Below, piece by piece: positions 49,975 to 64,000 of a DNA stretch of 64,000 nt. The stretch's first letter is position 1, and each line of letters starts with the position of its first letter. Where the stretch lies: assembly GCA_965249555.1 (NCBI GenBank), contig OZ252243.1, positions 2,016,001-2,080,000 of the forward strand, in the 5' to 3' direction. A model generated the notes under the pieces. That model was not told the origin of the DNA. It ran no database searches and saw only the letters and a program-made list of their open reading frames with translations. The stretch comes from Nitrosopumilus sp. Lineage in GTDB: Archaea > Thermoproteota > Nitrososphaeria > Nitrososphaerales > Nitrosopumilaceae. A program made the translations under genes and the position numbers.

Positions 49975-50068
49975 GCCTTAATTTACCTAGTCTCTCTCAA
50001 AATTTTTGTTTTAAACAGATTTGTCACTGCATCTAGTGTCACTGGAGTGACAACGGGGAATGGTTACA

Positions 50069-51178
50069 CTATCCAAAGGTAAATGTGAATATCTGAAATC
50101 CTTTATCTTCAATCTGTATTTCTAATAAGTGCGATTCACTATTTTTACTGCTTATAATGTTGTATAGATCAGGCTCTGAGACTATCAACATATTTCCAGA
50201 TGTAATATCATCTCCTGAATACTTTGCAGGAATTGGTTTCCCATCAAGAAATATTTTTAATTCTGCAACATTGTCTGTCACTATGTTTACTTGTTTTGCG
50301 TTGTATCTCAACTTGATGGTTCCAGTATCTGATACTAATTCCATACTGTCTTCATAATTCCTCCAATCCCCTGTCAGGTAGAATTTATGCAAGTCTGTTT
50401 TACCTGATTCTAAATATGTAACAGTTTTTCCTAGATTAAATCCTTCTTCACTTCCTAATTGATTTCTACTTTGTGCAAATTTGTAACCAAAGTATAATTC
50501 AGGTGTTCTAAACATTGAATGTTCAAATTCATCAATGTCTACAAGTGATGCAGCTGAAGCCATCTGAATTCCAAGTGATGCAGCTCTTTCATCTAAAAGT
50601 TGTTGAATAATTTTTTCAGTTTCTTGATATCCCCCTTCTCCAATATGATCATATCTGATGTATCCTTCATGGTCTGCAATGTATTTTCTTGGCCAGTATC
50701 TATTTTCAAATGCCTTCCATGTCTCCATATCGTTATCCAAAATAACAGGATAACTAATACCGTATTTTTCTATTGCCATCTTGACATTCTCAGGATCTTT
50801 TTCAAATTCAAATTCTGGAGAATGAATTCCAATGATTAACAATCCTTGGTCTGCATATTTGTCATCCCATGCAGTGATGTATGGAAGTGTTCTAATGCAA
50901 TTAATACAACTGTATGTCCAAATGTCATAAAGTATCACTTTATCTTTGATCTTTTCGCTTAATTCTTCAGGTGTGGTGTTGAGATAATGGGCAATTCCAA
51001 CTAAATCTGGGGCTGTCTTGAATCTTGATTTATCAATTTTAACCATTGAATTTTCTTCAGATGTAATATTTGCTGACTCAAATTTTTCATCAAATGACGA
51101 AAAAATCATGCTCGTTATTCCTAATCCTGTGACAATTACAATTCCTAAGATTAACGCTGTTTTTATTTCTGATTTCAT
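50069..51178 (-). CDS. membrane-anchored redoxin (DipZ-like)
   Basis: WTYSCINC, HSPEFEFEK and TPELY.GY motifs. Confidence 0.92.
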   Translation of the reverse strand: MKSEIKTALILGIVIVTGLGITSMIFSSFDEKFESANITSEENSMVKIDKSRFKTAPDLVGIAHYLNTTPEELSEKIKDKVILYDIWTYSCINCIRTLPYITAWDDKYADQGLLIIGIHSPEFEFEKDPENVKMAIEKYGISYPVILDNDMETWKAFENRYWPRKYIADHEGYIRYDHIGEGGYQETEKIIQQLLDERAASLGIQMASAASLVDIDEFEHSMFRTPELYFGYKFAQSRNQLGSEEGFNLGKTVTYLESGKTDLHKFYLTGDWRNYEDSMELVSDTGTIKLRYNAKQVNIVTDNVAELKIFLDGKPIPAKYSGDDITSGNMLIVSEPDLYNIISSKNSESHLLEIQIEDKGFQIFTFTFG

Positions 51179-51182
51179 TTAA

Positions 51183-51914
51183 TCACCCTAGTAACACCAA
51201 ATCATTAAGAAGTGGGAAATTTGCAATGTATGCAAGTTGATTTGTAAATACTAGAATTCCTAAAATGATGATGAATGCACCCAAGATTACGTTGTAGTAT
51301 TTGAGATGTTTAGACATTGAACGAATTAGTCTTGTGGCTCTTGAGAAAAAGACACCCATTAAGATGAATGGAATTCCTAGACCTAATGAATATGCAAGTA
51401 ATAAGCTAAATGAAAGAGATGGAGTGGTAGCTGCTAAAGTAAGTATTGTTCCAAGTATTGGCCCAACACATGGAGTCCATCCTACTGCAAAAGCTAAACC
51501 AAATACAAATGACATTGGATAGCTTGACTTTGAACTTTTTGGAAAGAATTTTTTCTCTATATTTAATGAACGAATTTTTGTAGATAACAACATAAAAATC
51601 CCAAAAGAAATAATAATTATTCCACCTACAAAATTAAGACTCTCTGTAAATTCACTAGCAGCGTTAGAAAGAACACTGTTAATCAAAACTCCTAAAATAG
51701 AAAATACTATTGAAAATCCCAAGACAAAAAATACGGTATTTAGTACAATGTTTAATCGATTAATAGTAAGGACAGATCCGCTTTTAGAGCCAAGTTCTGT
51801 AACAGTTGTTCCTGATATGTATGCAAGAAAAGCTGGAATCATTGGGAGAATACAGGGAGCAATAAATGAACCTAGGCCAGCAAGTAATGCTACAAATATT
51901 GTAGGATCTGCCAT
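51183..51914 (-). CDS. ccdA: cytochrome c biogenesis CcdA/DsbD-like protein
   Basis: SF.APCILP and WTPCVGPILG motifs. Confidence 0.92.
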   Translation of the reverse strand: MADPTIFVALLAGLGSFIAPCILPMIPAFLAYISGTTVTELGSKSGSVLTINRLNIVLNTVFFVLGFSIVFSILGVLINSVLSNAASEFTESLNFVGGIIIISFGIFMLLSTKIRSLNIEKKFFPKSSKSSYPMSFVFGLAFAVGWTPCVGPILGTILTLAATTPSLSFSLLLAYSLGLGIPFILMGVFFSRATRLIRSMSKHLKYYNVILGAFIIILGILVFTNQLAYIANFPLLNDLVLLG

Positions 51915-51979
51915 GCGTTAAAATTGCAATTTTTCCTTTAAAGCATTCTTCCATATTATTACCTAATACAATGTATGTA

Positions 51980-53063
51980 TAGCGAAGAGTCAAAGTTCGT
52001 GAACTAAAAATCATCAAAACACTTTTTGATCACCACACACAATGAAACACATGGACAAGTTAGAACAGCTTGAAGCAGCATACAAAAAGGAAAACTCCAA
52101 AGATATAGTCAGGATGCTTGCAGTACTAATGGTTCTCAAAGAGGGTAAGGAATTAGAGTACGCACAAACACTACACCGCTGTACAAACTGGGTACGCAAA
52201 TGGGTTGATCGTTTTAAAGTAGATGGCCTATATGATCACCCAAGGAGTGGAAGACCATGTGTAATCCCAAAGAAGCAAATGGATTCTATTATGTTCAAAA
52301 TTATGTTGACACTATTTACACCTGTAATGCTGCAGCAGACAATATTTGATTCTACTGGAATAAAATTTCACATAACACATGTCAGAAAAATAATGCACCA
52401 GTATGGAATGTATGGAATGTCTGCTAAAACTGCACAAAAATATCACGTCAATCATGCAAGTGTAACAGCTGTGCGCAGCTGGGCAGCAACGCATGAAAAA
52501 GAGAATTCCACACCTAAAAAAGAGTGGATTCACCATTGCAATGCTTGATGAGGCATTCTTTGTTAGGGATGTAAAGGCAGGACGAAAATATTGGTCACCA
52601 GTTGCCAAAAGAATATTTCTCCCATATGTGGGAAACCATGAAAGTTTGGCAGTGTATGGAACAATTACAATCAATGGAGACCAACTGTTTAGAATTTATA
52701 AAAAATTCAACGGTATAACATTTGTAGAATATCTAAAAGAGCTACACTACAAATATGGTAAAATTGCGTTGATACTTGACAGGGCATCAGTGCAGCAATC
52801 AAAGAAGGTCAGGGACTTTTTGACAGATAATCCAGATGTTAAACTGATTTGGCTACCAAAAGGACCCACCATATCTAAACATGATAGAGCAGTGTTGGAA
52901 AATAGGCAAGCATGTGTTGTTGGTATCAGAATATTATGCAATGTTTGCAATAATGAATAATGCAGTGTCACAATACTTTGGAACAAAAAAATTCAAACTT
53001 GATGTTGTTAATTATATTTTTAGAAATCCTGCAAAGATGTTCACGAACTTTTGATCGTCGCTA
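51980..53063 (+). mobile_element. IS630-family element, copy 1 (frameshifted transposase 52042 to about 53050)
   Basis: IRs TAGCGAAGAGTCAAAGTTCGTGAAC / GTTCACGAACTTTTGATCGTCGCTA flanked by TA; HTH...RSGRP, DE, ILDRA and YLNMIE motifs. Confidence 0.93.
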
Positions 53064-53065
53064 TA

Positions 53066-53258
53066 CCATCACCCTCCTTTTTGATCAAATTGCCTGATCT
53101 AGCGGAATGCTCCCATTTGCCATCTATGTGGTATTTTGTTTTCCGCTCACTTTGAGTTAGTCTGTGTAACGCCCTTGTACATGGCAGTAATAATTCAACT
53201 CTCAGGCCCAACAGTAGGTATACATCACAAGATATGAAAAAGATTTCGTATAACGTCT
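53066..53258 (-). mobile_element. IS110/IS1111-type element B, left end up to the SD and start codon
   Basis: Core AG, sub-terminal IR ATACGAAATC, structured non-coding region, then AAGGAGGGTG ATGG interrupted by IS630 at TA. Confidence 0.7.
53092..53207 (-). ncRNA. candidate bridge/seek RNA of element B
   Basis: Closing stem GCCTGA/TCAGGC around two hairpins with internal loops (GAGTTG/TAACTC; AGCGGAA/TTCCGCT); a loop holds ATGGGAG matching the element's right end. Confidence 0.6.
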
Positions 53259-53350
53259 GTTAAGAGATTGATCATCAGAAACTGGGGGGCCTAAATACAT
53301 CAGGAATAATGAAATGGAATTGATTTTATACTACGTTTGATCAAAATATA

Positions 53351-53578
53351 ATGATGAAACCAAAAAGCAAACTCTCTTTTACAGTATGTAGTGAAGATGA
53401 AGGTGGATTTAGTGCACAATGTATTGAATTTCCAGGAATTATAACTCAAGCTGATACAGAGTCTAAACTCACAGAAATGATGACTGATGCAGTAAATGGC
53501 TATTTTGAATCCTTTCCAGAAGAACGAAAGAGATTACAAAACATAAAGAAAAATAAAGTGATAGAGATCAGTGTCTAA
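53351..53578 (+). CDS. hicB: HicB-family antitoxin
   Basis: EDEGGFSA.C.EFPG.ITQADT motif. Confidence 0.88.
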   Translation: MMKPKSKLSFTVCSEDEGGFSAQCIEFPGIITQADTESKLTEMMTDAVNGYFESFPEERKRLQNIKKNKVIEISV

Positions 53579-53783
53579 AAAACTACCAATTCTATCATCT
53601 AGAGATATTCTGAGAATACTGCGCAGACACAAATTTTGGCAAACTGGACAGACTGGTAGCCATATTTTTATGACTGATGGAAAGCACAAGGTCACAATTC
53701 CACAAAGAAAGGAAATGAAGAAAGGGACTATGATATCCATAATTACACAGTCAGGATTAACACGAGAAGATTTTCTCAAATAA
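53571..53783 (+). CDS. hicA: HicA-family mRNA interferase toxin
   Basis: LP..S..DILRIL...F..Q.GSH...VTIP...GT..SII.QSG pattern. Confidence 0.9.
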   Translation: MSKKLPILSSRDILRILRRHKFWQTGQTGSHIFMTDGKHKVTIPQRKEMKKGTMISIITQSGLTREDFLK

Positions 53784-53963
53784 TGGATATCACATTTTAT
53801 GTCAAAAACTATCTTATGCCTTTTGAACACATCATCAACTGCTCAACACTATCGGAGACATTTCAAACCGATGTGATAATTGTCAAATACTGTGGTGATA
53901 TTCGGTTGATTTGCTAGAATGGGTTTTGAACAGAAGAGTTATACCATTATACTCAAAACTGAT

Positions 53964-53999
53964 GTATGTATTGATTTGTGCGTGAAGGTTGATACATAC
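53964..53999 (-). mobile_element. 36-bp IS66-derived mini-element
   Basis: Reverse complement GTATGTATCAACCTTCACGCACAAATCAATACATAC equals the IS66 left end fused to the right IR. Confidence 0.75.
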
Positions 54000-54011
54000 T
54001 TCACATGGATA

Positions 54012-55095
54012 TAGCGACGATCAAAAGTTCGTGAACATCTTTGCAGGATTTCTAAAAATATAATTAACAACATCAAGTTTGAATTTTTTTGTTCCAAAGT
54101 ATTGTGACACTGCATTATTCATTATTGTAAACATTGCATAATATTCTGATACCAACAACACATGCTTGCCTATTTTCCAACACTGCTCTATCATGTTTAG
54201 ATATGGTGGGTCCTTTTGGTAGCCAAATCAGTTTAACATCTGGATTATCTGTCAAAAAGTCCTTGACCTTCTTTGATTTGTGCACTGATGCCCTGTCAAG
54301 TATCAACGCAATTTTACCATATTTGTAGTGTAGCTCTTTTAGATATTCTACAAATGTTATACCGTTGAATTTTTTATAAATTCTAAACAGTTGGCCCCCA
54401 TTGATTGTAATTGTTCCATACACTGCCAAACTTTCATGGTTTCCCACATATGGGAGAAATATTCTTTTGGCAACTGGTGACCAATATTTTCGTCCTGCCT
54501 TTACATCCCTAACAAAGAATGCCTCATCAAGCATTGCAATGGTGAATCCACTCTTTTTTAGGTGTGGAATTCTCTTTTTCATGCGTTGCTGCCCAGCTGC
54601 GCACAGCTGTTACACTTGCATGATTGACGTGATATTTTTGTGCAGTTTTAGCAGACATTCCATACATTCCATACTGGTGCATTATTTTTCTGACATGTGT
54701 TATGTGAAATTTTATTCCAGTAGAATCAAATATTGTCTGCTGCAGCATTACAGGTGTAAATAGTGTCAACATAATTTTGAACATAATAGAATCCATTTGC
54801 TTCTTTGGGATTACACATGGTCTTCCACTCCTTGGGTGATCATATAGGCCATCTACTTTAAAACGATCAACCCATTTGCGTACCCAGTTTGTACAGCGGT
54901 GTAGTGTTTGTGCGTACTCTAATTCCTTACCCTCTTTGAGAACCATTAGTACTGCAAGCATCCTGACTATATCTTTGGAGTTTTCCTTTTTGTATGCTGC
55001 TTCAAGCTGTTCTAACTTGTCCATGTGTTTCATTGTGTGTGGTGATCAAAAAGTGTTTTGATGATTTTTAGTTCACGAACTTTGACTCTTCGCTA
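54012..55095 (-). mobile_element. IS630-family element, copy 2 (inverted)
   Basis: Near-identical reverse complement of 51980-53063, flanked by TA. Confidence 0.93.
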
Positions 55096-55247
55096 TATCA
55101 ACCTTCGCGCACAAATCAATAGCTATATGTGAATACAAAAAGAAGGAATTCAGATAGCATAAAAAATGAACCCAGGTTCAGGACTCGTAATTCATCGTCC
55201 TCAAAGAAAAGTCCAAAGAGACAGATTAGGGGGAAAAAGACAAGGGC

Positions 55248-56231
55248 ATGTATGTTGGCATTGACTTGCACAAGAAATTTCTTCAAGTGGCAACAATGGA
55301 TAATGACGGAAAGATATTACAAAACATAAAAGTTGAGAACACTCATGAATCAATCAGGAAACATTTTACAGACATACAGATTCATGCCAATATTGTCATG
55401 GAATCATCATCAGTATAACACGTATGGATTTCTTACAGATGAATTGGGATACAAAAACGTGACACTCTCAAACCCGTATCTTACAAAGACAATAGCCGCA
55501 TCAAAAAAAACAGACAAGATTGATGCCAGGATACTGGCAGATCTTTTGCGTGGAGGATACATTGCAACATGCCATATTCCAAACAAAAAGATAGTAAAAC
55601 ATCGCCAGCTGGTAAGATACAGAAAAAAACTCATTCAGTGGAGAACATCTCTCAAAAATTCTGTCCATGGAATTTTGTTACAGGAGGGAATCAAGATACC
55701 CGGAGTCACATTCACTGTAACATACAACAAAAGACTCACCTCCCTAGGTGACTATCGCATAGATGGATTTGTACGACAGATAGACTATCTTAATCTGCAA
55801 ATTGCAGATATTAATTCAAGAGTGTATGCTGCTGTAAATGCCAGTCCTGATGCCATGATAATAAAATCAATACCCGGAATTGGTGACTACTCGTCACTAG
55901 TTATCGCATCAGAAATTGCAAATATTAGCAGATTCAATGACTCTCACAAGTTATGCGCATATGCAGGAGTCGTGCCATCAGTCAGAAACTCTGCAGATTA
56001 CACCATGGCAGCATAACCAAAAGAGGAAGCATGACACTACGATGGGTCCTTATCCAATGCGTCCATTCTCATGCAATACATGCCAAGAACAGTGACATTA
56101 CAAAATTTTACAATCGCATTAAAAAGAAGAGAGGCTCATCAAAAGATGCAGTTGCCGCATCATCCCAGATTCTGTGAGTGATTTACTGGATGCTAAAAGA
56201 GAGGAGAGAATTTGTACAGAATTACAGTTAG
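55248..56231 (+). pseudogene. IS110 DEDD transposase (two frameshifts and one TGA)
   Basis: MYVGIDLHK, VMES, KKTDKIDA, SIPGIG, YAGVVPSVRNS and G.ITKRGS..LRW motifs across frames. Confidence 0.9.
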
Positions 56232-56400
56232 GACTGCAAGTCGCGTTTGGTATGTTGAGGGACAAGCCTCGGTTGATAACTGCGAATAGGTCCTAACGAA
56301 GGGATGAAGATAGCATTGAGGAAGAAGCCTCGTATGGATACATGTCCGTCATCTTTTGTTTGAAAGCATTCCCTAGCGAAAGCTATGCCTTGGGATGTAA
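56227..56400 (+). ncRNA. candidate bridge/seek RNA of element A
   Basis: Two internal-loop hairpins, each capped by GAGG-N6-CCTC; guides match the target and donor junctions; third hairpin TAGC-GAAA-GCTA. Confidence 0.78.
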
Positions 56401-56450
56401 AAAAGTAGGAAATGTATAAAAACAATTCACATGGATACATACCTAAACAG

Positions 56451-57913
56451 GTATGTATCAACCTTCACGCACAAATCAACACTATTACACAAAAAGATCT
56501 AAGATCAACTAAATCATCATACAAAACATGTCAGGTTGTGGTCATGAGAAAATCATCATACAGCTACAAAAAAAGACAAAACAACAAGACGAAGTGATAA
56601 AACAACTACAAGCAGAGATAAAACAACAAAAACTAATCACAGGGAATCTCATAGAATCAAACAAGGAACTACAAAAAAGACTGTCATATTATGAGAATGC
56701 GCACTCTCCGCCATCAAAGAATTCCCTTGAATGGAGAAAGCAAAAAAGACAACACAGACAGCCAGGCAAATCAAGACGTGGTGGAATAGCAGGACACGTT
56801 GGCAAGACACAGAAATTCAGACCAACTAGCACCAAACACCACAGATCAGATGCATGTCCCAAATGCGGTAGTGAAAATATTCATCAAACCAAAACCTGCA
56901 AAAGGATAATGGTTGAGATTCCTCCACCAACACCCTACGGTATAACTGAGCATGTTTTGAATCAATACATCTGCATGGACTGTTCTGATAATTTTCAAAC
57001 CACGGGAAACCTTCCACTACATGGATGTTTTGATGGTTCAGTGATACGTGAGGTAGTCTCACTGTTCTCAAAGAGATTGACATACGATGCTATCAGAACC
57101 ACACTCTATGAAAGATATGGATTAGAAATCAGCAATACAACCGTACAATCCATTCTTCGCAACGGTAGTGTGATGTTAGAGTCATTTTACAATGACATCC
57201 ACAGCGAAATCGTGACTGAAAAGATTCTCGGAATCGATGAGACCGGATTTTCAATTGATGGAAATACTGGATGGATGTGGGTTGCAAGAAGCAAGACTAG
57301 TGCACAGTATGCCTTGGAGTACAGCAGAGGTGCCAATGTTCTAAAAAAGTACTGGAAGAAATTCAAAGGAACCCTAGTGTCTGACGGATATGCTCCGTAC
57401 AGGACAGTATTTTGTGATAACACAAAGCAGAGATGCACCGCACACCTGCAGCGCGATGCCAAATATCTGGCAATAAAATCAAAGGACAAAAAGGCCAGGA
57501 TTCTATATGAGAAACTCTCAGGGATGCTAGGTCATGCCAGGGTTTGGAGTGTAGGTAATCGTCATACAAAACGGCGGGAAACGTACAGGAATGATTTACT
57601 AAAACAGCTGGACCGTATCATTGCACGATATTTGAAAGGTGATACGGAGATGGTTCAGTTTGGCAAGAAGCTAAAGACTGCAAGGAACAGCATGTTTACG
57701 TTTGTCATGGATGGTGATGTCCCGTCAACTAACAATGATGCAGAGAATTCCATTCGAAAGTGCGTGATGCAGAGGAATGTTCGCGGGCAGATGAAGAGTG
57801 ATCAGGGCATGAGGATGATCTCAGTCTTTCTCACATGCTTTGAGACATGGAGAATAAGGGAATTGAACATGTTTTCTGAGATGGCAAAATACATCTAAGT
57901 GCTTAATACATAC
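56451..57913 (+). mobile_element. IS66-family element (single-ORF, ISBst12-like), intact
   Basis: IRs GTATGTAT(C/T)AA; 8-bp TSD CTAAACAG at 56443-50 and 57914-21. Confidence 0.93.
56528..57898 (+). CDS. IS66-family transposase
   Basis: N.HSPPS, CPKCG, IDETG, LVSDGY..Y, QRCTAHL.R and TNNDAE.SIR motifs. Confidence 0.95.
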   Translation: MSGCGHEKIIIQLQKKTKQQDEVIKQLQAEIKQQKLITGNLIESNKELQKRLSYYENAHSPPSKNSLEWRKQKRQHRQPGKSRRGGIAGHVGKTQKFRPTSTKHHRSDACPKCGSENIHQTKTCKRIMVEIPPPTPYGITEHVLNQYICMDCSDNFQTTGNLPLHGCFDGSVIREVVSLFSKRLTYDAIRTTLYERYGLEISNTTVQSILRNGSVMLESFYNDIHSEIVTEKILGIDETGFSIDGNTGWMWVARSKTSAQYALEYSRGANVLKKYWKKFKGTLVSDGYAPYRTVFCDNTKQRCTAHLQRDAKYLAIKSKDKKARILYEKLSGMLGHARVWSVGNRHTKRRETYRNDLLKQLDRIIARYLKGDTEMVQFGKKLKTARNSMFTFVMDGDVPSTNNDAENSIRKCVMQRNVRGQMKSDQGMRMISVFLTCFETWRIRELNMFSEMAKYI

Positions 57914-57952
57914 CTAAACAGTTATTTATATAGAAATTTAGTAATTGAGTAT

Positions 57953-58222
57953 ATGATGTCAGCAATGCATCAAATGCAATACACTGGATTCACAACAACC
58001 ATGTTAGCTCTTGAACCAACTGCAACTGATACTGAAGTCTATTTTGTAGAATTAAAACAAGATGAAGATGGACGTTTTGTTGCTACTGTTCCAAAATTAC
58101 CTGGTGTTGTAACTGATGGTGCTACAGAAGATGAAGCATTAGATAATGTTAATGATGCAGTTCAAGCCATGTTAGAAGCTAAAGGATTAAAGCAACAGTT
58201 TATTCTTATCAGTGTTTCATAA
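57953..58222 (+). CDS. hicB: HicB-family antitoxin
   Basis: DEDGRFVATVP.LPGVVTDG.T..EAL.N..DA motif. Confidence 0.9.
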   Translation: MMSAMHQMQYTGFTTTMLALEPTATDTEVYFVELKQDEDGRFVATVPKLPGVVTDGATEDEALDNVNDAVQAMLEAKGLKQQFILISVS

Positions 58223-58229
58223 CGTCGTA

Positions 58230-58451
58230 TTGCCTAAGTTACCACGACCTTCTACTAGAGAATTAGCAGCTTTTCTAAATACTCAAGGTTACACTTTGGA
58301 TCATTCAAGAAAACATCATGTTTTTAAAAATAGTGCAGGAGCAATGGTAACTGTTCCTGAAAGACAAGAAATAGGAACTGGATTACTGATGGCAATATTG
58401 GCTGAAATTGGTTGTAGTAGAGATGATTTTATGAAATGGTGGCAAAAATAA
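58230..58451 (+). CDS. hicA: HicA-family toxin
   Basis: LP....REL..FL...GY...HHVFK...VTVP...EIG.GLL.AIL pattern. Confidence 0.85.
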   Translation: MPKLPRPSTRELAAFLNTQGYTLDHSRKHHVFKNSAGAMVTVPERQEIGTGLLMAILAEIGCSRDDFMKWWQK

Positions 58452-58497
58452 ACTCAAAAAGCATAGAACATATAATTCAGTGGGGTAAAACCTTGAT

Positions 58498-58953
58498 ATG
58501 ATTCCTGAAGAAGAAATTCGAAACAACCTTGTTGATATGGGATACATATTGGCAACACCAAGAGCACTTTTTCCAAGTTATTACAAATTGAATGATGGAA
58601 CTATTGCTAGAGCATTAATCAACATAAATTATCTGATCGCCGATCCACAAGCTCCACAGGGTTTTGCAGTAAACCAAACCAATTCCGTTACTGCATTTGT
58701 ACCAAAAGAAAAGCGACATCCTGAATTATTTCAACCATATAATACTGCAGAGTTATTGAAAGACCCTATAGATGAAGATGTGGAATTTGAAGTTTTACGA
58801 GAAAACTTTAGCGTTTATGATCTCAGTAATGATATGATTCTTAGTGTTAAGACAGTTGTAGGTCAAATCATAAAATCAAAATATCATACTAGAGACGGAG
58901 AACCAATCTATAGTATTAACACAAATCCAATCATCAAAGCAAAAAAGAAATAA
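58498..58953 (+). CDS. hypothetical protein
   Basis: 151-aa ORF; two similar Y.L.DG/YDLSND beta units and a GEPIY motif. Confidence 0.7.
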   Translation: MIPEEEIRNNLVDMGYILATPRALFPSYYKLNDGTIARALININYLIADPQAPQGFAVNQTNSVTAFVPKEKRHPELFQPYNTAELLKDPIDEDVEFEVLRENFSVYDLSNDMILSVKTVVGQIIKSKYHTRDGEPIYSINTNPIIKAKKK

Positions 58954-59036
58954 AATAGAATTTTTTAGGCATGAGACATATTCAAAATCATTGTTAATTA
59001 AAAAAGAACGTCAATTTCTTACTGAAAAAACGTATG

Positions 59037-59544
59037 TATCCATGTGAATTGTTTTTATACATTTCCCACTTTTTTACATCCAGAGGAATAGCTTTCGCTA
59101 GGGAATGCTTTCAAACAAAAGATGACGGACATGTATCCATACGAGGCTTCTTCCTCAATGCTATCTTCATCCCTTCGTTAGGACATATTCGCAGTTATCA
59201 ACCGAGGCTTGTCCCTCAACATACCAAACGCGACTTGCAGTCCTAACTGTAATTCTGTACAAATTCTCTCCTCTTTTTTAGCATCCAGTAAATCACTCAC
59301 AGAATCTGGGATGATGCGGCAACTGCATCTTTTGATGAGCCTCTCTTCTTTTTAATGCGATTGTAAAATTTTGTAATGTCACTGTTCTTGGCATGTATTG
59401 CATGAGAATGGACGCATTGGATAATGACCCATCGTAGTGTCATGCTTCCTCTTTTGGTTATGCTGCCATGGTGTAATCTGCAGAGTTTCTGACTGATGGC
59501 ACGACTCCTGCATATGCGCATAACTTGTGAGAGTCATTGAATCT
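59037..59544 (-). mobile_element. IS110 element A, partial copy 2 (right end, RNA and transposase C-terminus)
   Basis: Reverse complement of about 55930-56437 with a few substitutions. Confidence 0.9.
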
Positions 59545-59670
59545 CCCATACGAAATCGTCTCCAATTACTACGGACACTTTTTAGCGTGCTTTGCTGAAT
59601 CAGGACATCTCAGATATGCCTTGCATCTTATACTTTTGTTGTGTCAGTTCATGATTTTGTGTACGATACA
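59543..59670 (-). mobile_element. IS110/IS1111-type element B, right-end fragment
   Basis: Minus strand GATTTCGTAT-GGG-AG (IR to the ATACGAAATC of the left ends), preceded by a putative transposase tail YRTQNHELTQQKYK. Confidence 0.6.
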
Positions 59671-59713
59671 CTTTCAGAATTGCAAAGAGAAGAGGAAGTG
59701 GAAATGTGTGTGC

Positions 59714-60113
59714 TCATCTTTTCCCAATCTTGCCCCGGATAAACCGGTACATCTTCTCTGCTGATTTTTTTGGTATTGCATCAATTGTACCGTTTGTGTT
59801 TCTTCCCCAGAAGATGTGATTCCTTTCACTCTTTGACATTTCCGTCATTCCCCTCACAAAGAAGACCAGCGATGATGAGAACAGTCCCTTCTCCAGTCTG
59901 ATGTTTGTGATGGTATTGTAATAGTACTCTTCAATGTTTTCCCCAAAGCCCAGCCGTATCAGGTTTCGGATAATTACCCTCTTTTCTGTAAGATATACGG
60001 TGTTTGGGTTGATTAGTGCCGCACCACCGGGCAGTACCCTTGACTGTCTTGCAGACATTATTAGTCTCGCCAGAATCCAGCCGGTCTCTGATCTTTTCTA
60101 CCTCTGAGCTCAT
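59714..60113 (-). pseudogene. frameshifted bacterial-type PH-domain protein
   Basis: L..GE start in one frame; YLTEKRVII...I.NIRLEKGLFSS in another. Confidence 0.6.
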
Positions 60114-60359
60114 GATGTACCCTGTATGTTTTGTATAAAAGGTATATCTTGCAGTTTAGGGCAGCACACCAGATATAAGATCCTGGATTATCTTGTATGC
60201 CCCAAGCAGCGCATCATGTAACATGTCATATGATATGGCAAATACTCCCGTATACCACAGGACTATCACTATACCAAGAAACACACAGAGCTTGAGAATC
60301 CCCCACATGTATACATACAATACAATCCGTTTTTAACTGGGTTGAATGGAATTTTTGGC

Positions 60360-60464
60360 ATGAACAAGCGTCTCGTAATGGTAGGTGTACTTTTAGGGAT
60401 TATAGTTACATTTGCAGTAATTATTGGCTCACCTGCATTAGGTGGATTTGATACTTTACGATAA
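60360..60464 (+). CDS. small membrane protein (34 aa)
   Basis: Manual translation MNKRLVMVGVLLGIIVTFAVIIGSPALGGFDTLR. Confidence 0.5.
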   Translation: MNKRLVMVGVLLGIIVTFAVIIGSPALGGFDTLR

Positions 60465-61595
60465 TCACCCAAATTTAGTATGTGCTTTTTCAAAAATTTC
60501 AAGCGTTTTTTCAATATCTACCTTTGATAACCACGCAGTAACAGAAATTCTCAATCTTGCTTGATTTTTTGGAACTGTAGGGTATCTAATTGGTTGTGCA
60601 AATACTCCATTATTAAACAAAAATTCTCCAAAGTCCATTGCTGACTTTTCATTTCCGATAATTATTGGTATGATATGTGTTGGAGAATTTGTCTCATATC
60701 CAATTTGTCTCAATCCTTTTGAGAGTTGTTTGACATTTTTTTCTAGCTTTTCCTTTTGTTTTTCTCTGTTTGATTCAAATCTTTTCAGGGAATGTTCAAT
60801 CAAAAATGAAGGAAGTGCAGATGTGTAAATAAATGATTTTGATTTGTTAATACATAAATCAATCACATTATTTTGTGATGCAACATATCCTCCAAATGAT
60901 CCTAGCCCTTTACTTAGACTACTAATATACAAATCAATTTTTTTTGCAACATTGAAATAATTTGGAGTTCCTTTCCCGTCTTCTCCAATAACAAAATCCC
61001 CGTGTGCATCATCTACAATAGTAATTGCATTTGTTTTTTCTGAGATCTCAGTTATTTGTTTTAATAATGAAAAATCTCCATCCATACTAAATATTCCTTC
61101 AGTGATTACAACTTTGTTTTTCCCATTCTGCTTTAGTTTCTTTTGTAAATCCTGCATATCATTATGTTTGTAAATTAAAACTTTAGCATCTGATAATTTA
61201 CATGATTCTATAATACTTGCATGGTTTAACTCATCACTTAGAATCAAATCGCCTTTTTTTACAATTGAAGAAATTGCCCCAAGATTTGCCATGTATCCTG
61301 TAGGGTAAACTAAACTGTTTTGTTTTGATTTATGTTTTGCAAGGATATCTTCTAATTTTTTGTATGATTCATCATTTCCAGAAACAAGTCTTGAACTTGA
61401 CTGAAGCTGTTTAAATTGAATCTTTGTTGTTGTAATTCCAAGATAATCATTTGAACATAAGTTGAGAAGTTTTTTACCATTAATTGTAATATGTGAATCT
61501 TTTACCTTACCGTATCGTAATTTTCTGTAGAGGTTGTTTTGCTTAATTTTACCTATCTCTGAATCAATAAAGTCTAGTTTATGCTTTGAGACCAA
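60465..61595 (-). CDS. bioF: 8-amino-7-oxononanoate synthase
   Basis: SNDYLG, GYMAN, NHASI, DDAHG and SLSK motifs; bio cluster. Confidence 0.93.
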   Translation of the reverse strand: MVSKHKLDFIDSEIGKIKQNNLYRKLRYGKVKDSHITINGKKLLNLCSNDYLGITTTKIQFKQLQSSSRLVSGNDESYKKLEDILAKHKSKQNSLVYPTGYMANLGAISSIVKKGDLILSDELNHASIIESCKLSDAKVLIYKHNDMQDLQKKLKQNGKNKVVITEGIFSMDGDFSLLKQITEISEKTNAITIVDDAHGDFVIGEDGKGTPNYFNVAKKIDLYISSLSKGLGSFGGYVASQNNVIDLCINKSKSFIYTSALPSFLIEHSLKRFESNREKQKEKLEKNVKQLSKGLRQIGYETNSPTHIIPIIIGNEKSAMDFGEFLFNNGVFAQPIRYPTVPKNQARLRISVTAWLSKVDIEKTLEIFEKAHTKFG

Positions 61596-62556
61596 TTTTC
61601 TCTATCATTTTAAGGTCTTTTTTAGCCTCATTTCCATCCATCGTCAGATATCCTGCAGTGATAATCCCATTTGCACCACTTTGAAGTAATTCTTCACCAG
61701 AATCATCAAGATTTGTTTCTCTTCCACCAGAAATTTTGATGACTGATTCTGGTAAGAGAAATCGGATCACAGAAAACATTCGAATAATCTCTGAATTAGA
61801 TAACTCTGTTTGCAATTCAAGTGGAGTTCCAGGCATTGGCACTAACATGTTAATTGTCACTTCTTCAGGGTATAGTCTGGATAATTCTAATGCTAACTCT
61901 CGTCTCTGTTCTCTTGTTTCTCCAAGTCCGATAATTCCCCCAGTGCATAACTCTAATCCTGCATCTCTTGCAATTTTTAATGTCTTTAACCTATCTTCAT
62001 ATGTATGCGTAGTACAAATTTCGGAAAATTTTGATTTTGCAGTCTCCAAATTATGGTTGTATCTTTTTACTTTGAGTTCTTTTAGCTTTTTTGCTTGTTC
62101 TTGTGTTAGAAAACCTAAACTACATTCTATAGTTATTCCAACTTTATCATTAACTTCAATAATTATTCTACATACTTTATCAAAATCTTTTGGTGATGGT
62201 TCTCTCCATGCTGCAACTAGACAATATGATTCGGCACCTTCATCTTTTGCTTTTTGAGCTTTTTCAACTATTTCTTCAGGTGTAGGTAATTGGTATGTTT
62301 CAATTCCTGTATCAAAAAAAGCAGATTGTCCACAAAATGTACAGTCTTCACTGCATGCATTTTTTTTAATATTGTTTAACTGCTCCACATCTACCCTATC
62401 TCCATTAAAATCCCTGGTGATCTCATTTGCATAACTTGCTAAATCTTTTAGATTTTCATCTGGAATATTAAATAATTTTTCAGCATCTTCTGATGATATT
62501 CCAATTCCAGAAAATACTTTTTCCTGACACTCTTTGATAAACTCTAGAGTATTCAC
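61579..62556 (-). CDS. bioB: biotin synthase
   Basis: CSEDCTFCGQS, YNHNLET and C.GGIIGLGE motifs; start inferred. Confidence 0.96.
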   Translation of the reverse strand: MNTLEFIKECQEKVFSGIGISSEDAEKLFNIPDENLKDLASYANEITRDFNGDRVDVEQLNNIKKNACSEDCTFCGQSAFFDTGIETYQLPTPEEIVEKAQKAKDEGAESYCLVAAWREPSPKDFDKVCRIIIEVNDKVGITIECSLGFLTQEQAKKLKELKVKRYNHNLETAKSKFSEICTTHTYEDRLKTLKIARDAGLELCTGGIIGLGETREQRRELALELSRLYPEEVTINMLVPMPGTPLELQTELSNSEIIRMFSVIRFLLPESVIKISGGRETNLDDSGEELLQSGANGIITAGYLTMDGNEAKKDLKMIEKIGLKA

Positions 62557-62629
62557 AATTAACTTCAACAATTTTTCATTAATAACACTAGTGGAAAGGT
62601 TAACCTTTGTGGTTGTAGGGGGTTAACGG

Positions 62630-63946
62630 TTAAACTACCTTTGATTTTGCAGTCTGAATTGTTTTTATTGTCCTATTTAGGAGCAAATCCAGTTCTTTTT
62701 CTGAAATTGCCAGTGGTGGAACAAGCATGACGATGTTTCCTAGAGTTCTAAGATAGATTCCATTCTTTTTACCCTCTTCAAAAAATATCTTATTGATTGA
62801 TTTTTTAGGATGAATTGGAGTTTTTTTCTTTTTATTAGTCACTAATTCAATTCCCATCAACATTCCTTTGTGTCTAACATCTCCTACAATATCGATTTCT
62901 GAAATTTCTTGATAAAAATTTTCAAAGATTTTTGATGTTTTTTGAATCTTTTTGATCAAATTATTTTTTTTATACATTTTGAGATTTTCATTTGCAACCG
63001 CTGCTGCAATGGGATTTCCTGTGTATGTATGACCGTGAAATAGATGCTTCCAATCATTAAATTCACCTAAATACGAATCATAAATTTTTTTGTTTGTCAA
63101 GGTTGTAGCCATTGTTAGATATCCACCAGTTAACATTTTTCCATAAGCAACAATGTCTGGAATACTTTTTTGTTCTTCATACTGTATCATGGAACCTAAT
63201 CTTCCAAAACCAGTTGCTATTTCATCTAAAACAAATAATACATCATATTTTTTACAAATCTGGCTGATTTTTTTCTGAAATCCTTTTGGATAAATCATAA
63301 CGCCTCCTGCTACTTGTGCACCACTTTCCATTACAAAAGCTGCAATGTTACTACTTTTTGAGATTTTTTTTTCAATTTTTTCTAAACAATAGTTTTGATA
63401 ATCTAAAAAAGTAAATCCTTTGGGTATTCTGTATTTGTTAGGAACTGAAAATTGTATTGTTGAAAATAATTGTTTTTTAAATTTACCAAAAAATTCCGGT
63501 ACAAATCCTACTGACATTGCTCCAAATGTATCTCCATGATATCCATTTTTTAGTGTGGCAATCTCTGTTTTCTTTTCATTTCCAATGTTTTTCCAGTATT
63601 GTAATGCTAGTTTGATAGCAATCTCCATTGCAGTAGAACCATTATCAGAATAAAAGACTCTGTGCATTCCTGGAGATATTTTTACTAGACTTTCTGCAAG
63701 CCTCTCTGCAGGCTCATTTGTGAGATTAAACATGGAAGAATGCTGCAGTTTTTTACTCTGATTTGTAATGGCTTTCACTAATTCTGGATTAGAGTGTCCC
63801 CATACATTGCACCACATTGATGCTACTCCGTCAAGCATTTTGTTGCCTTTAGTATCAATTAACCACACTCCTTTCCCTTTGGTGATTGTATCAAACGAAT
63901 TCCATTCTTTCATCTGAGTGTTTGGGTGCCAAATAGAACTTTTCAA
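62630..63946 (-). CDS. bioA: DAPA aminotransferase
   Basis: IWHP.TQM, SDNGSTAMEIA.K, YHGDT.G, DEIATGFGR and HGHTY motifs. Confidence 0.96.
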   Translation of the reverse strand: MKSSIWHPNTQMKEWNSFDTITKGKGVWLIDTKGNKMLDGVASMWCNVWGHSNPELVKAITNQSKKLQHSSMFNLTNEPAERLAESLVKISPGMHRVFYSDNGSTAMEIAIKLALQYWKNIGNEKKTEIATLKNGYHGDTFGAMSVGFVPEFFGKFKKQLFSTIQFSVPNKYRIPKGFTFLDYQNYCLEKIEKKISKSSNIAAFVMESGAQVAGGVMIYPKGFQKKISQICKKYDVLFVLDEIATGFGRLGSMIQYEEQKSIPDIVAYGKMLTGGYLTMATTLTNKKIYDSYLGEFNDWKHLFHGHTYTGNPIAAAVANENLKMYKKNNLIKKIQKTSKIFENFYQEISEIDIVGDVRHKGMLMGIELVTNKKKKTPIHPKKSINKIFFEEGKKNGIYLRTLGNIVMLVPPLAISEKELDLLLNRTIKTIQTAKSKVV

Positions 63947-64000
63947 CTGATTTTGTAAGATTACAGATCTTAATAATTAACCGATAAAGTTAATCAACTA

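What the first reader, a model, noticed from the sequence alone, without database searches (positions are those of the whole stretch)
56227..56400. Archaeal IS110 bridge/seek RNA programmed against the terminal repeats of a co-resident IS66 transposon
Seen: domain 1 is closed by GTTAGGAC/GTCCTAAC (56227-34, 56290-97) and has an inner GAGG-N6-CCTC hairpin. Its loop strands are GGTATGT (56249-55) and GGTTGATA (56271-78), which together spell GGTTGA-TA-CATACC, exactly the reverse complement of the IS66 left terminus at 56450-63. Domain 2 (GATGA/TCATC, same inner hairpin) has ATAGC (56310-14) and ATGGATA (56334-40), which spell the element's own circle junction ATGGA-TA-GCTAT. Both copies of the element are followed by TA-CATAC. 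The occupied left flank AATCAATA differs from the guide only at positions compatible with G-T/U-G wobble. Known: IS110/IS1111 recombinases use bispecific guide RNAs, and IS4321/IS5075 target Tn21-family TIRs. Inference: an archaeal RNA-guided recombinase with a TA core that parasitises or inactivates IS66 ends. This copy's transposase is broken, so it would need an intact copy in trans.
Basis: partly seen in the sequence, partly recalled or inferred. Interest (0 to 1): 0.92.

Follow-up and report, generated by a model that had tools for sequence, protein, structure and literature searches.

The report
Archaeal guide-RNA transposon targeting IS66 ends
A jumping gene in an ammonia-oxidising archaeon carries its own small guide RNA that steers it into the ends of a second jumping gene; the mechanism is already known from bacteria, but here it appears in a new host with an unusually varied set of guides.

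Summary
Window 55122-56435 is an IS1111-type member of the IS110 family. Its recombinase gene is broken here but intact in 3 of 9 full-length genomic copies. Its 3' non-coding region (56227-56398) folds into two internal-loop domains.

Evidence for the guide RNA:
- Among 20 copies in this genome, variation is concentrated in the two strands of loop 1 (10 and 8 variants), while the stems and loop 2 stay constant.
- Loop-1 strands match the DNA flanking the element, both in this genome and in 76 related loci from other Nitrosopumilaceae genomes (permutation tests, 0 of 20000).
- Loop-2 strands track the element's own ends.
- 15 of 29 stem pairs show compensatory changes.

The window copy's guide spells GGTTGA-TA-CATAC(C), the terminal 13 nt of the IS66 left end. 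An intact sibling with the same guide sits exactly in such an end, and 12 of 21 left junctions lie in IS66 sequence. A related lineage in another genome also occupies IS66-type ends.

This is a new member of a known kind (bridge/seekRNA). Expression, circle formation and IS66 inactivation are untested. The wobble idea gains no statistical support.

The parts
55122..56435 (+). IS1111-type IS110-family element, copy 1 (1314 bp). It is flanked by TA at 55120-21 and 56436-37.
   Evidence: Boundaries come from comparing 21 left and 29 right ends in the genome.
55248..56231 (+). Recombinase pseudogene. The frame is broken twice. In intact copies the stop codon is the TAG at 56229-31, inside the first RNA stem.
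   Evidence: ORF fragments. The intact 331-aa form occurs in 3 of 9 full-length copies. Family assignments.
56227..56297 (+). RNA domain 1, the target-binding loop. Stems: 56227-33 with 56291-97, 56241-45 with 56281-85, and 56256-60 with 56267-71.
   Evidence: compensatory changes in helices 1-3.
56247..56255 (+). 5' guide strand TTGGTATGT. [quoted passage not shown]
56271..56278 (+). 3' guide strand GGTTGATA. It has the same sense as the left target plus TA, so it would pair with the bottom strand.
56299..56357 (+). RNA domain 2, the donor-binding loop. ATAGC (56310-14) is complementary to the left end GCTAT. ATGGATA (56334-40) equals the right end ATGGA plus TA.
   Evidence: Invariant in 20 copies. 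It covaries with the ends across families: ATGGATA or ATAGATA with right ends ATGGA or ATAGA, and TAGC or TGGT with left ends GCTA or ACCA.
56366..56398 (+). Third hairpin of the non-coding region.
   Evidence: RNAalifold on 20 copies. Covariation was not tested across families.
56415..56422 (+). A/T-rich TATA-like box, 5 nt upstream of the subterminal repeat. It is a candidate outward-facing archaeal promoter that would read across a circle junction (inferred).
   Evidence: A box at the same position in all 15 right ends listed for the window and 13 related loci. That it is a promoter is my inference from recalled archaeal consensus.
55127..55134 (+). Left subterminal inverted repeat ATGTGAAT. 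Its partner ATTCACAT lies at 56425-32.
   Evidence: Read. The terminal extensions are TA+GCTAT (7 nt) and GGA (3 nt).
56438..56443 (+). Right target half CATACC, matched by the 5' guide strand.
55098..55121 (+). Left flank: IS66 left-end nt 8-29 (one mismatch) plus TA. This flank is shared with 6 other 'class I' copies.
56451..57914 (+). IS66-family element with a single 456-aa transposase gene (56528-57898). Its 8-bp duplication CTAAACAG lies at 56443-50 and 57915-22. Its left end 56451-63 is an unoccupied perfect target on the minus strand.
53964..53999 (-). 36-bp IS66 remnant (left-end nt 1-29 plus TACATAC). It contains the uninterrupted site AATCAA-TA-CATAC, the empty form of the window copy's insertion site.
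   Evidence: Single genomic match. Sequence read.
54000..54011 (+). 12-nt fragment identical to the IS110 right end TTCACATGGATA. Its origin is unexplained.
54014..55093 (-). IS630-like element flanked by TA. A second copy lies at 51979-53061 (+).
   Evidence: HTH and DDE_3 domains.
59039..59544 (-). IS110 copy 2, truncated. It keeps the recombinase 3' end and the whole RNA, with the same guides as copy 1, and is followed by TA-CATACG.

Best explanation
The window holds a decayed copy of an IS1111-type insertion sequence of the IS110 family. The family is active, or was recently active, in a Nitrosopumilaceae archaeon. Intact copies encode a 331-aa DEDD/serine recombinase and, starting at its stop codon, a roughly 170-nt bridge (seek) RNA.

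Loop 1 of the RNA reads the target. Its 5' strand pairs with the top strand to the right of the crossover, and its 3' strand pairs with the bottom strand to the left. Loop 2 reads the joined ends of the excised circle in the same way (ATGGA-TA-G/ACTAT). The recombinase then exchanges strands at a T(A) shared by circle and target. The result is left flank-TA-element-TA-right flank, with no duplication.

The guide in the window copy specifies GGTTGA-TA-CATAC(C), the outermost 13 nt of the co-resident IS66 left end read inward. Other copies in the same genome carry mutated guides. At least 5 different positions of IS66 are occupied, and some guides specify unrelated sites.

Shown here: family membership, RNA structure, the guide-flank and guide-end relationships, and occupancy of IS66 ends.

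Inferred from published work on IS621 and IS1111-family elements: RNA binding by the recombinase, the circular intermediate, and strand exchange.

The window copy could move only if an intact copy supplied the protein. Its RNA gene and both ends look intact.
For: Protein:
- Pfam PF01548 (89 bits) and PF02371 (77 bits).
- NF033542 at 225.6 bits against a cutoff of 140.
- IS621 (8wt6) at E = 1.5e-13 and ISCro4 (9t56) at E = 2.7e-13, with the D, E and D..D motifs and a Ser aligned.

Copies: 44 BLAST segments in the genome. 3 of 9 full-length copies have an intact ORF.

RNA:
- A two-domain fold on the plus strand only.
- A covariance model finds it at 79 places in 76 related loci.
- 97.2% of cells are paired, against 37-50% when partners are slid. 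15 of 29 pairs change on both sides. 0 of 500 shuffles reach the observed values.

Guides within the genome:
- 10 distinct 5' strands and 8 distinct 3' strands among 20 copies, with variation concentrated there.
- Own guide against own flank: mean 6.6 against 5.55 for permuted flanks, 0 of 20000. The three intact copies score 8, 9 and 8 of 9.

Guides across genomes:
- 23 of 68 junctions match 9 of 9, and 42 of 68 match at least 8 of 9.
- With one row per distinct guide, the right side scores 6.57 of 9 against 4.50, and the left side 3.69 of 5 against 1.59. Both give 0 of 20000.

Donor loop: the 3' strand reads ATGGATA where the right end is ATGGA and ATAGATA where it is ATAGA, in 14 of 15 cases I checked by eye. 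The 5' strand reads TAGC for left end (G/A)CTAT and TGGT for ACCAT.

IS66 targeting:
- Copy 709350-710681 lies exactly in an IS66 left end.
- 12 of 21 left junctions lie in IS66 sequence, at 5 positions. The window copy is one of these 12; I assigned it by eye.
- In another genome, 9 of 13 loci of a 76%-identical lineage lie in IS66 right ends or IS66-derived short elements, with a guide adapted to that end.

IS1111 hallmarks: the RNA lies downstream of the gene, subterminal repeats are present, the terminal extensions are 7 and 3 nt, and the top-strand complement lies 5' of the bottom-strand match. Passages in PMC11187229 give these as family traits.
Against: - No expression data: no RNA run was listed.
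- No circle junction in the assembly (0 matches) or in contigs of 4 runs.
- The single-sequence fold is only modestly better than shuffles (z = -1.66, 10 of 200 shuffles as good).
- 6 of 20 copies match their own guide at only 4-5 of 9 positions. These copies were either rearranged after insertion or inserted with another copy's RNA.
- Left-side matches in this genome are weak. By eye, 9 full-length copies score 0 to 5 of 5. The window copy scores 2 of 5 by Watson-Crick pairing.
- The register of the right guide relative to the element end differs by 0, 1 or 2 nt among guides that all match 9 of 9. I cannot explain this.
- 46 perfect GGTTGATACATAC sites are unoccupied, against 1 occupied with its IS66 flank intact. 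Activity is therefore low, or insertions are lost.
- The alignment used for pair counts was fitted to the model structure, which favours pairing.
Confidence: 0.9

Rival explanations
1. The window copy and its six 'class I' siblings did not each insert through their own guide. In this view one IS110 insertion into a shortened IS66 created a composite: IS66 left end nt 1-29, then IS110, then TACATAC. That composite was then spread by the IS66 transposase acting on the IS66-like termini GTATGTA...TACATAC. The IS66-derived flanks of this copy would then reflect hitch-hiking, not RNA-guided targeting.
For: - 7 of 21 left junctions share the identical 29-nt IS66 left end and a private left-end variant (G-CTAT against A-CTAT). 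The DNA outside GTATGTA differs in the 6 copies where it is readable.
- After insertion the right junction keeps GATACATAC, 9 of the 13 terminal nt of an IS66 end.
- In the window, and at genome 2221606, the unit is followed by 8 nt and then an IS66 left end. This is the layout of IS66 tandem arrays with 8-bp spacers at genome 2202955-2207297.
Against: - No 8-bp duplication flanks the one class I copy for which both outer flanks can be read, genome 2210592-2211898 (TTGTGTGT against GTTAATGT, by eye).
- Only 7 nt of an IS66 right end are present.
- An empty AATCAA-TA-CATAC site exists. This fits plain IS110 insertion or excision at that site.
- One class I copy has a different right flank, TA-ATCATATT at genome 1250086.
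Confidence: 0.2
2. The complementarities are coincidences of an A+T-rich, repeat-laden region. In this view the 3' region is an untranslated tail or terminator with no guiding role.
For: - The genome is 34% G+C.
- The fold z-score is weak.
- Rfam reports nothing for the region.
Against: - Permutation tests in two independent data sets give 0 of 20000.
- Random TA sites reach 8 of 9 in 1.4% of cases, against 12 of 29 observed.
- Variation is confined to the loop strands.
- Stems show compensatory changes.
Confidence: 0.02
3. The RNA acts on IS66 rather than for IS110. It might work as a short antisense or decoy against IS66 end transcripts or transposase binding. Alternatively the loop strands are copied from the target after insertion, rather than directing insertion.
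For: - The guide equals an IS66 terminus.
- An unoccupied perfect IS66 end lies 14 nt from the element.
Against: - Guide strands in relatives match non-IS66 sites and even the left end of another IS110 family.
- Loop 2 matches the element's own ends, which an anti-IS66 role does not need.
- Strands of 7-9 nt are short for antisense action (my judgement).
- For bacterial relatives, published work shows that the guide determines the target (passages in PMC11208160 and PMC11187229).
Confidence: 0.03

Closest known systems
IS1111-family insertion sequences with a seekRNA (ISEc11, ISPa11, ISKpn4; Siddiquee et al. 2024, PMC11187229, passages read)
   Same: - A DEDD recombinase.
- The guide RNA is encoded downstream of the gene.
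- Subterminal inverted repeats, with 7-nt left and 3-nt right extensions.
[quoted passage not shown]
- Natural reprogramming among relatives.
   Different: - The host is an archaeon.
- The subterminal repeat is short (8 bp, against the 11-13 bp quoted as usual).
- Both target and donor strands lie in two simple internal loops.
- The target is an IS66 end.
- An A/T-rich box sits in the right end, where bacteria have a split sigma-70 promoter (this last point is inferred).
IS621 bridge RNA and recombinase (IS110 group; Durrant et al. 2024, PMC11208160, passages read; structures 8wt6-9)
   Same: - A bispecific RNA with a variable first loop for the target and a conserved second loop for the donor.
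- Each loop reads the left side on the bottom strand and the right side on the top strand.
- The recombinase is homologous (E = 1.5e-13).
   Different: [quoted passage not shown] Here the RNA lies in the right end and the strand order is reversed.
- The core is CT in IS621. Here it is TA in the donor, and only T is constant in targets.
[quoted passage not shown]
   Same: An IS1111-type element that uses the terminal repeat of another transposable element as its landing site, at a fixed position and orientation.
   Different: - The target element is different (IS66 family, not Tn3/Tn21 family).
- The host domain is different.
- Here several guide variants occupy several positions of the same host element.
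- I did not test sequence relatedness to IS4321.

Membership tests
IS110 family (RNA-guided DEDD recombinases) | N-terminal DEDD/RuvC-like domain plus C-terminal Transposase_20 domain. | tested here: met
   PF01548 covers residues 3-148 (89.3 bits) and PF02371 covers 207-292 (76.9 bits). NF033542 scores 225.6 bits against a cutoff of 140. The test used the intact copy P0001; the window copy is frameshifted.
IS110 family (RNA-guided DEDD recombinases) | Catalytic D-E-D-D and serine residues are conserved. | tested here: inconclusive
   In the alignment to IS621, GIDLH, ME, KTDKIDA and a Ser in VRNS align with GIDTA, IE, KTDTVDA and YES. Which residues are catalytic is recalled from memory, not taken from a call.
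IS110 family (RNA-guided DEDD recombinases) | A structured non-coding RNA with two internal loops, the first variable and the second conserved. | tested here: met
IS110 family (RNA-guided DEDD recombinases) | Loop 1 strands covary with the insertion-site flanks. | tested here: met
IS110 family (RNA-guided DEDD recombinases) | Loop 2 strands match the joined element ends. | tested here: met
   ATGGATA or ATAGATA goes with right end ATGGA or ATAGA in 14 of 15 cases. TAGC or TGGT goes with left end (G/A)CTAT or ACCAT (compared by eye).
IS110 family (RNA-guided DEDD recombinases) | A circular intermediate, and an RNA that the recombinase binds and requires. | not testable with these tools
   No circle junction in the assembly or in contigs. 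No RNA runs were listed.
IS1111 subgroup | The long non-coding region and RNA lie downstream of the recombinase gene. | tested here: met
   The RNA starts at the stop codon (56229-31) and the right end is at 56435.
IS1111 subgroup | Subterminal inverted repeats, with about 7 nt beyond them on the left and 3 nt on the right. | tested here: met
   ATGTGAAT at 55127-34 and ATTCACAT at 56425-32 (8 bp). The extensions are TA+GCTAT and GGA. The repeat is shorter than the usual 11-13 bp but within the 7-17 bp range quoted in PMC11208160.
IS1111 subgroup | In the RNA, the complement of the target's top strand precedes the match to the bottom strand. | tested here: met
   The 5' strand is the reverse complement of the right flank, and the 3' strand equals the left flank plus TA. 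The rule is quoted from PMC11187229.
IS1111 subgroup | The recombinase is related to that of IS1111 over its full length, including the C-terminus. | not tested
   No IS1111 reference protein was on hand. Only IS110-group structures are in the PDB search.
IS-end hunters (IS4321/IS5075-like behaviour) | Insertion at a fixed position and orientation in the terminal repeat of another transposable element. | tested here: met
   In this genome, 1 junction lies in the IS66 left end and 2 in the IS66 right end, all at the TA 5 nt from the tip. In another genome, 9 of 13 loci of a related lineage lie in IS66-type ends.

The most novel reading that the evidence does not exclude
These Nitrosopumilaceae genomes may record natural guide evolution in progress. 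In this reading, one IS1111-type lineage has diversified its target loop within a single genome into at least 10 right-guide and 8 left-guide variants, and at least 5 different positions of the resident IS66 carry its copies. A sister lineage in another genome has re-tuned its guide to that genome's IS66 ends. A third lineage is programmed against the left end of another IS110 family. An IS66-type short element has in turn landed inside an IS110 guide-RNA gene. If this holds, RNA-guided insertion sequences here form a layered parasite-on-parasite network that drives the nested IS clusters of these IS-rich archaea. The elements would run on an archaeal promoter box in the right end and tolerate a one-base core and a sliding right-guide register.
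Probability: 0.4. Interest if true: 0.65.

Novelty: new member of a known kind. Interest (0 to 1): 0.5.

Why it matters
- It extends RNA-guided (bridge/seekRNA) recombination, with sequence-level support, to mesophilic ammonia-oxidising archaea. The system is compact: a 331-aa protein plus an RNA of about 170 nt.
- Many naturally reprogrammed guides come paired with their insertion sites. This is a ready-made data set for the rules of guide length, register and core tolerance in the IS1111 branch.
- It explains why IS110, IS66 and IS630 copies are nested in these genomes. A passage in PMC13343696 reports 14.95% IS content for one Nitrosopumilus assembly.
- It gives annotators a model, the covariance model, for a non-coding gene that Rfam did not report.
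- It does not change the known mechanism.

Tried and rejected
Negative or uninformative results:
- Rfam scan of 50000-64000 at E up to 1: no family over the RNA. The only hit is a weak SNORD31-like match elsewhere.
- Single-sequence folding: the right architecture on the plus strand, but z is only -1.66. I did not use it as evidence on its own.
- Sequencing runs: 7 runs listed, no RNA holder listed.
- Contigs of runs X1, X3, X4 and X5 laid on 54900-56700: many short repeat-derived pieces. Variant letters at 56249-51 fit the guide variants among copies. No joint of right end to left end was seen, and no empty site. One back-joint (56479 to 55120) is simply the class I left junction.
- Circle or tandem junction CACATGGATA[AG]CTATATG in the assembly: 0 matches.
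- Wobble hypothesis: among 75 mismatches in 41 guide-junction pairs scoring 6-8 of 9, 20 are G-T or U-G compatible, against 16.6 expected from composition. There is no enrichment, so the idea is neither supported nor excluded for the left flank of the window copy.
- An 8-bp duplication around the class I unit: none, by eye.
- An uninterrupted TGCTGATTCATAC site, which would explain the one-base-shorter right junction in the L022 family: 0 in the loci held. TGCTKGATTCATAC occurs 3 times.
- Origin of the 12-nt right-end fragment at 54000-54011: I considered several insertion and deletion histories, and none fits all junctions.

- I made no structure prediction, complex prediction, protein-atlas search or large protein search, because family membership was already clear.

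Literature:
- Four searches found no paper in the held library that describes guide RNAs of Nitrosopumilaceae IS110 elements, or IS110-family insertion into IS66 ends.
The element catalogues of PMC11208160, PMC11187229 and bioRxiv 10.1101/2024.06.21.599552 may list archaeal members that I could not see.
Full report
**What is there.** I read the region. One refinement: IS66 begins at 56451, not 56450. Base 56450 is the last base of its 8-bp duplication CTAAACAG (56443-50, repeated at 57915-22). The IS110-type element runs from GCTAT (55122) to ATGGA (56435), with TA on both sides (55120-21 and 56436-37), followed by CATAC (56438-42). Its recombinase frame is split into three ORFs. A second, truncated copy lies at 59039-59544 on the minus strand and is also followed by TA-CATAC. 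The surroundings are a nest of insertion sequences:
- two IS630-like copies (51979-53061 and 54014-55093);
- an IS66-family element with one 456-aa gene (56451-57914; PF03050, NF033517);
- short IS66 remnants.

**Host and family.** The window lies in a 2.23-Mb single-contig genome. Its rRNA genes match the archaeal Rfam models best. BLAST of the element against the genome gives 44 segments. Of 9 full-length copies, 3 have an intact 331-aa ORF. That protein carries PF01548 and PF02371. It exceeds the cutoff of NF033542 'IS110 family RNA-guided transposase' (225.6 against 140 bits). It matches the solved IS621 and ISCro4 recombinases at E of about 1e-13. A scan of one genome per species returned 76 related loci. 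Of these, 74 come from records titled Nitrosopumilus, Nitrosopumilaceae, Cenarchaeum or Nitrososphaerota, and 2 from a record titled only 'MAG: bacterium'.

**The RNA.** The minus strand does not. The energy z-score alone is weak (-1.66). I built a covariance model from 20 copies in this genome. It finds the RNA at 79 places in the related loci. On that alignment (47 distinct rows) 97.2% of cells pair, against 37-50% when partners are slid by 1-3 columns. 15 of 29 pairs show changes on both sides, and 0 of 500 shuffles reach the observed values. The alignment was fitted to the structure, which inflates pairing somewhat. The compensatory changes are also plain in the raw sequences, for example GAGG/CCTC becoming GGGG/CCCC or GGGA/TCCC.

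**Guides within this genome.** In the 20 copies that keep the RNA, the stems and all of domain 2 are nearly invariant. The two strands of the domain-1 internal loop occur in 10 and 8 versions. 9 of 15 guide columns have entropy of at least 0.8 bit, against 11 of 169 elsewhere (p = 1e-6). The reverse complement of the 5' strand matches the DNA just right of the element:
- Own guide against own flank averages 6.6 of 9, against 5.55 for permuted flanks (0 of 20000).
- The three copies with an intact gene score 8, 9 and 8.
- The clearest case is the intact copy at genome 282100-283429. Its strands TATGATTGT and TTTTTTA predict ...TTTT-TA-CAATCATA, and its flanks read GATTTT-TA and TA-CAATCATAAC.
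- Taking the ten guide versions as a repertoire, 12 of 29 right junctions match one of them at 8 or more of 9 positions, against 1.4% of random TA sites.
- Against this, 6 of 20 copies match their own guide at only 4-5 of 9 positions. Left-side matches in this genome are loose: 0-5 of 5 by eye, and 2 of 5 for the window copy.

**Guides across genomes.** In the related loci the same relationship holds with quite different sequences. 23 of 68 right junctions match 9 of 9, and 42 of 68 match at least 8 of 9. Using one row per distinct guide, the right strand scores 6.57 of 9 against 4.50 for permuted flanks. The left strand scores 3.69 of 5 against 1.59. Both give 0 of 20000. Domain 2 follows the element's own ends. 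Its 3' strand reads ATGGATA where the right end is ATGGA and ATAGATA where it is ATAGA (14 of 15 cases I compared). Its 5' strand reads TAGC where the left end is (G/A)CTAT and TGGT where it is ACCAT. This is the bispecific logic of bridge RNAs.

**Subgroup.** Passages of PMC11187229 give the IS1111-family traits:
- RNA region downstream of the gene;
- subterminal inverted repeats;
- 7 nt beyond them on the left and 3 nt on the right;
- the top-strand complement lying 5' of the bottom-strand match.

All are met here, with ATGTGAAT/ATTCACAT as repeats and TA+GCTAT and GGA as extensions. The repeat is short at 8 bp. Passages of PMC11208160 describe the opposite strand order and an upstream RNA for IS621. 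They also say many IS1111 members hold donor-binding bases in a multi-loop. Here both loops are simple internal loops.

**IS66 as target.** The window copy's guide spells GGTTGA-TA-CATAC(C). The intact copy at genome 709350-710681 has the same guide. It lies with its left end against ...GAAGGTTGA-TA (IS66 nt 77 to 6, reversed) and its right end against TA-CATAC followed by unrelated DNA. That is exactly 5 nt from the tip of an IS66 left end. Two more left junctions lie at the equivalent TA of the IS66 right end (GCTTGA-TA). In all, 12 of 21 left junctions are in IS66 sequence, at five positions: nt 6/7 of the left end, nt 29-31, nt 60-61, about nt 1434, and the right-end tip. 11 of the 12 come from BLAST; I assigned the window copy by eye. 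Some of these positions fit other guide versions, as compared by eye:
- The strands TCAACTA and AATGATTTT of the copy ending at genome 1584634 fit the IS66 site TCAAC-TA-AATCATC.
- The TTTAGATGT and GTTAGATGT strands fit AAAA-TA-CATCTAAG near the IS66 right end. One left junction and two right junctions lie at that site.

16 of 29 right junctions read TA-CATAC followed by diverse DNA. This is what insertion 5 nt inside an IS66 tip leaves behind. In another Nitrosopumilus genome a lineage 76% identical in protein has the strands TATGAATCA and CTTGCTA. Of its 13 loci, 2 lie 8 nt past the stop of an IS66-family transposase gene. Another 7 lie about 71 nt from an IS66-like left end, inside short IS66 derivatives. 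12 of the 13 have (T)TGATTCATAC on the right. Targeting of IS66-type ends therefore recurs with a guide re-tuned to the local end sequence.

**The window copy itself.** It belongs to a group of 7 copies ('class I') whose left flank is IS66 left-end nt 1-29 plus TA, and whose first base is G instead of A. In the window, the first 7 nt of that flank are displaced by an IS630 insertion and a 12-nt right-end-like fragment. Its insertion site reconstructs as AATCAA-TA-CATAC. Exactly one uninterrupted copy of this site exists in the genome, at window 53964-53999. There it forms a 36-bp remnant made of IS66 left-end nt 1-29 plus TACATAC. The copy therefore sits in an IS66 derivative rather than a full IS66 end. 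That is true, but such mismatches are not enriched on the right-guide side of the data set (20 of 75 against 16.6 expected). Left-side matching is loose in general. Whether the seven class I copies are independent insertions, or one composite spread by the IS66 transposase, remains open (rival 1).

**Mechanism.** I take the published model for the family as the most likely one. The element excises as a circle that joins ATGGA-TA-(A/G)CTAT. The RNA holds circle and target side by side through its two loops. The recombinase exchanges strands at the shared T(A). Steps shown here: the sequence relationships and the occupied sites. Steps inferred: RNA expression, binding, the circle and the chemistry. 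Two features differ from the textbook picture and are unexplained:
- The left junction is always TA, but the base after the T at the right junction is A, T, G or C. In the 76% lineage, all 13 left junctions are TA, while the right junctions are TT in 6 and TG in 7.
- Guides that match 9 of 9 do so in three registers relative to the element end.

**Limits.** There are no RNA data and no circle junction. 46 perfect target sites are unoccupied. The window copy is a pseudogene that would need protein from one of the three intact copies.

**Novelty.** The mechanism, the subgroup traits and the habit of landing in another transposon's terminal repeat are all in print for bacteria. [quoted passage not shown] Four literature searches found nothing on these archaeal elements' guides or on IS66 as a target. 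Supplements were closed. I rate it a new member of a known kind, made more interesting by the in-genome guide repertoire and the IS-on-IS layering.

Noticed in passing
L015:1111-1255, L019, L020, L021, L066, L068-L070, L077, L051:1152-1297, L052:1155-1300, L050, L074:1162-1307: A different IS110 lineage has loop-1 strands TTTTCACAT and AAACTATA. These spell AAACTA-TA-TGTGAA, the left end of the window's IS110 family. Its copies sit at that position, giving the nested left end ACTA-TA-ACCATATGTG. This is one RNA-guided IS targeting another.
   Followed up: partly
L035:2484-2700: A short element with IS66-like ends (GTATGAATCAAGC...GGTTGATACATAC) and an 8-bp duplication GATAATTG is inserted inside the donor loop of an IS110 guide-RNA gene. 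This is the reverse of the IS110-into-IS66 relationship (by eye).
   Followed up: no
window 56415-56422 and the same position in 13 related loci: A conserved A/T-rich box (TATAAAAA, TTTAAAAA, TTATAAAT and similar) lies 5 nt upstream of the CACAT of the right end and is often preceded by AAAT(G). It looks like an archaeal BRE/TATA element facing outward, which would read into the left end only in the circular form. The promoter reading is from recalled consensus.
   Followed up: partly
genome C1:2202955-2207297 (outside the window), and window 56438-57922: IS66 copies stand in head-to-tail arrays separated by one and the same 8-bp spacer (CATAAAAC). The window shows the same layout: CATAC-CTAAACAG-IS66-CTAAACAG. 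This suggests IS66 forms tandem copies that share the target duplication.
   Followed up: partly
window 53964-54011: A 36-bp IS66 remnant (left-end nt 1-29 plus TACATAC) is followed directly by a 12-nt copy of the IS110 right end, and then by an IS630 insertion at a TA run. No simple history explains this junction.
   Followed up: partly
related loci L022-L033 and L057; own genome 1839579 and 1558284: The base after the T at the right junction varies (A, T, G, C), while the left junction is always TA. The same guide also gives junctions that differ by one base (ATAGA-TT-GATTC against ATAGA-T-GATTC). This points to a one-base effective core or a flexible register.
   Followed up: partly
window 51972-51978 and 53062-53075: The first IS630 copy is inserted at the TA of a GTATG-TA-TACCATC sequence that resembles an IS66-type terminus. 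Both IS630 copies in the window sit at TA steps of IS66-like tips (by eye).
   Followed up: no
window 53351-53783 and 57899-58451: There are two pairs of small adjacent ORFs (75+70 aa and 107+79 aa). From memory their sequences look like HicB/HicA-type antitoxin-toxin pairs. One pair lies directly after the IS66 right end. No family search was run on them.
   Followed up: no
window 59865-59920: A weak match to the C/D-box family SNORD31 (21.3 bits against a gathering score of 40; E = 0.83). It is probably chance, though archaea do have C/D-box RNAs.
   Followed up: no
related loci L037, L043, L048, L067, L072, L076: These are mosaic elements. The recombinase is only 59-62% identical to the window family, yet the guide RNA scores as high as in the 85% family (131-144 bits). 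This suggests recombination between IS110 lineages.
   Followed up: no
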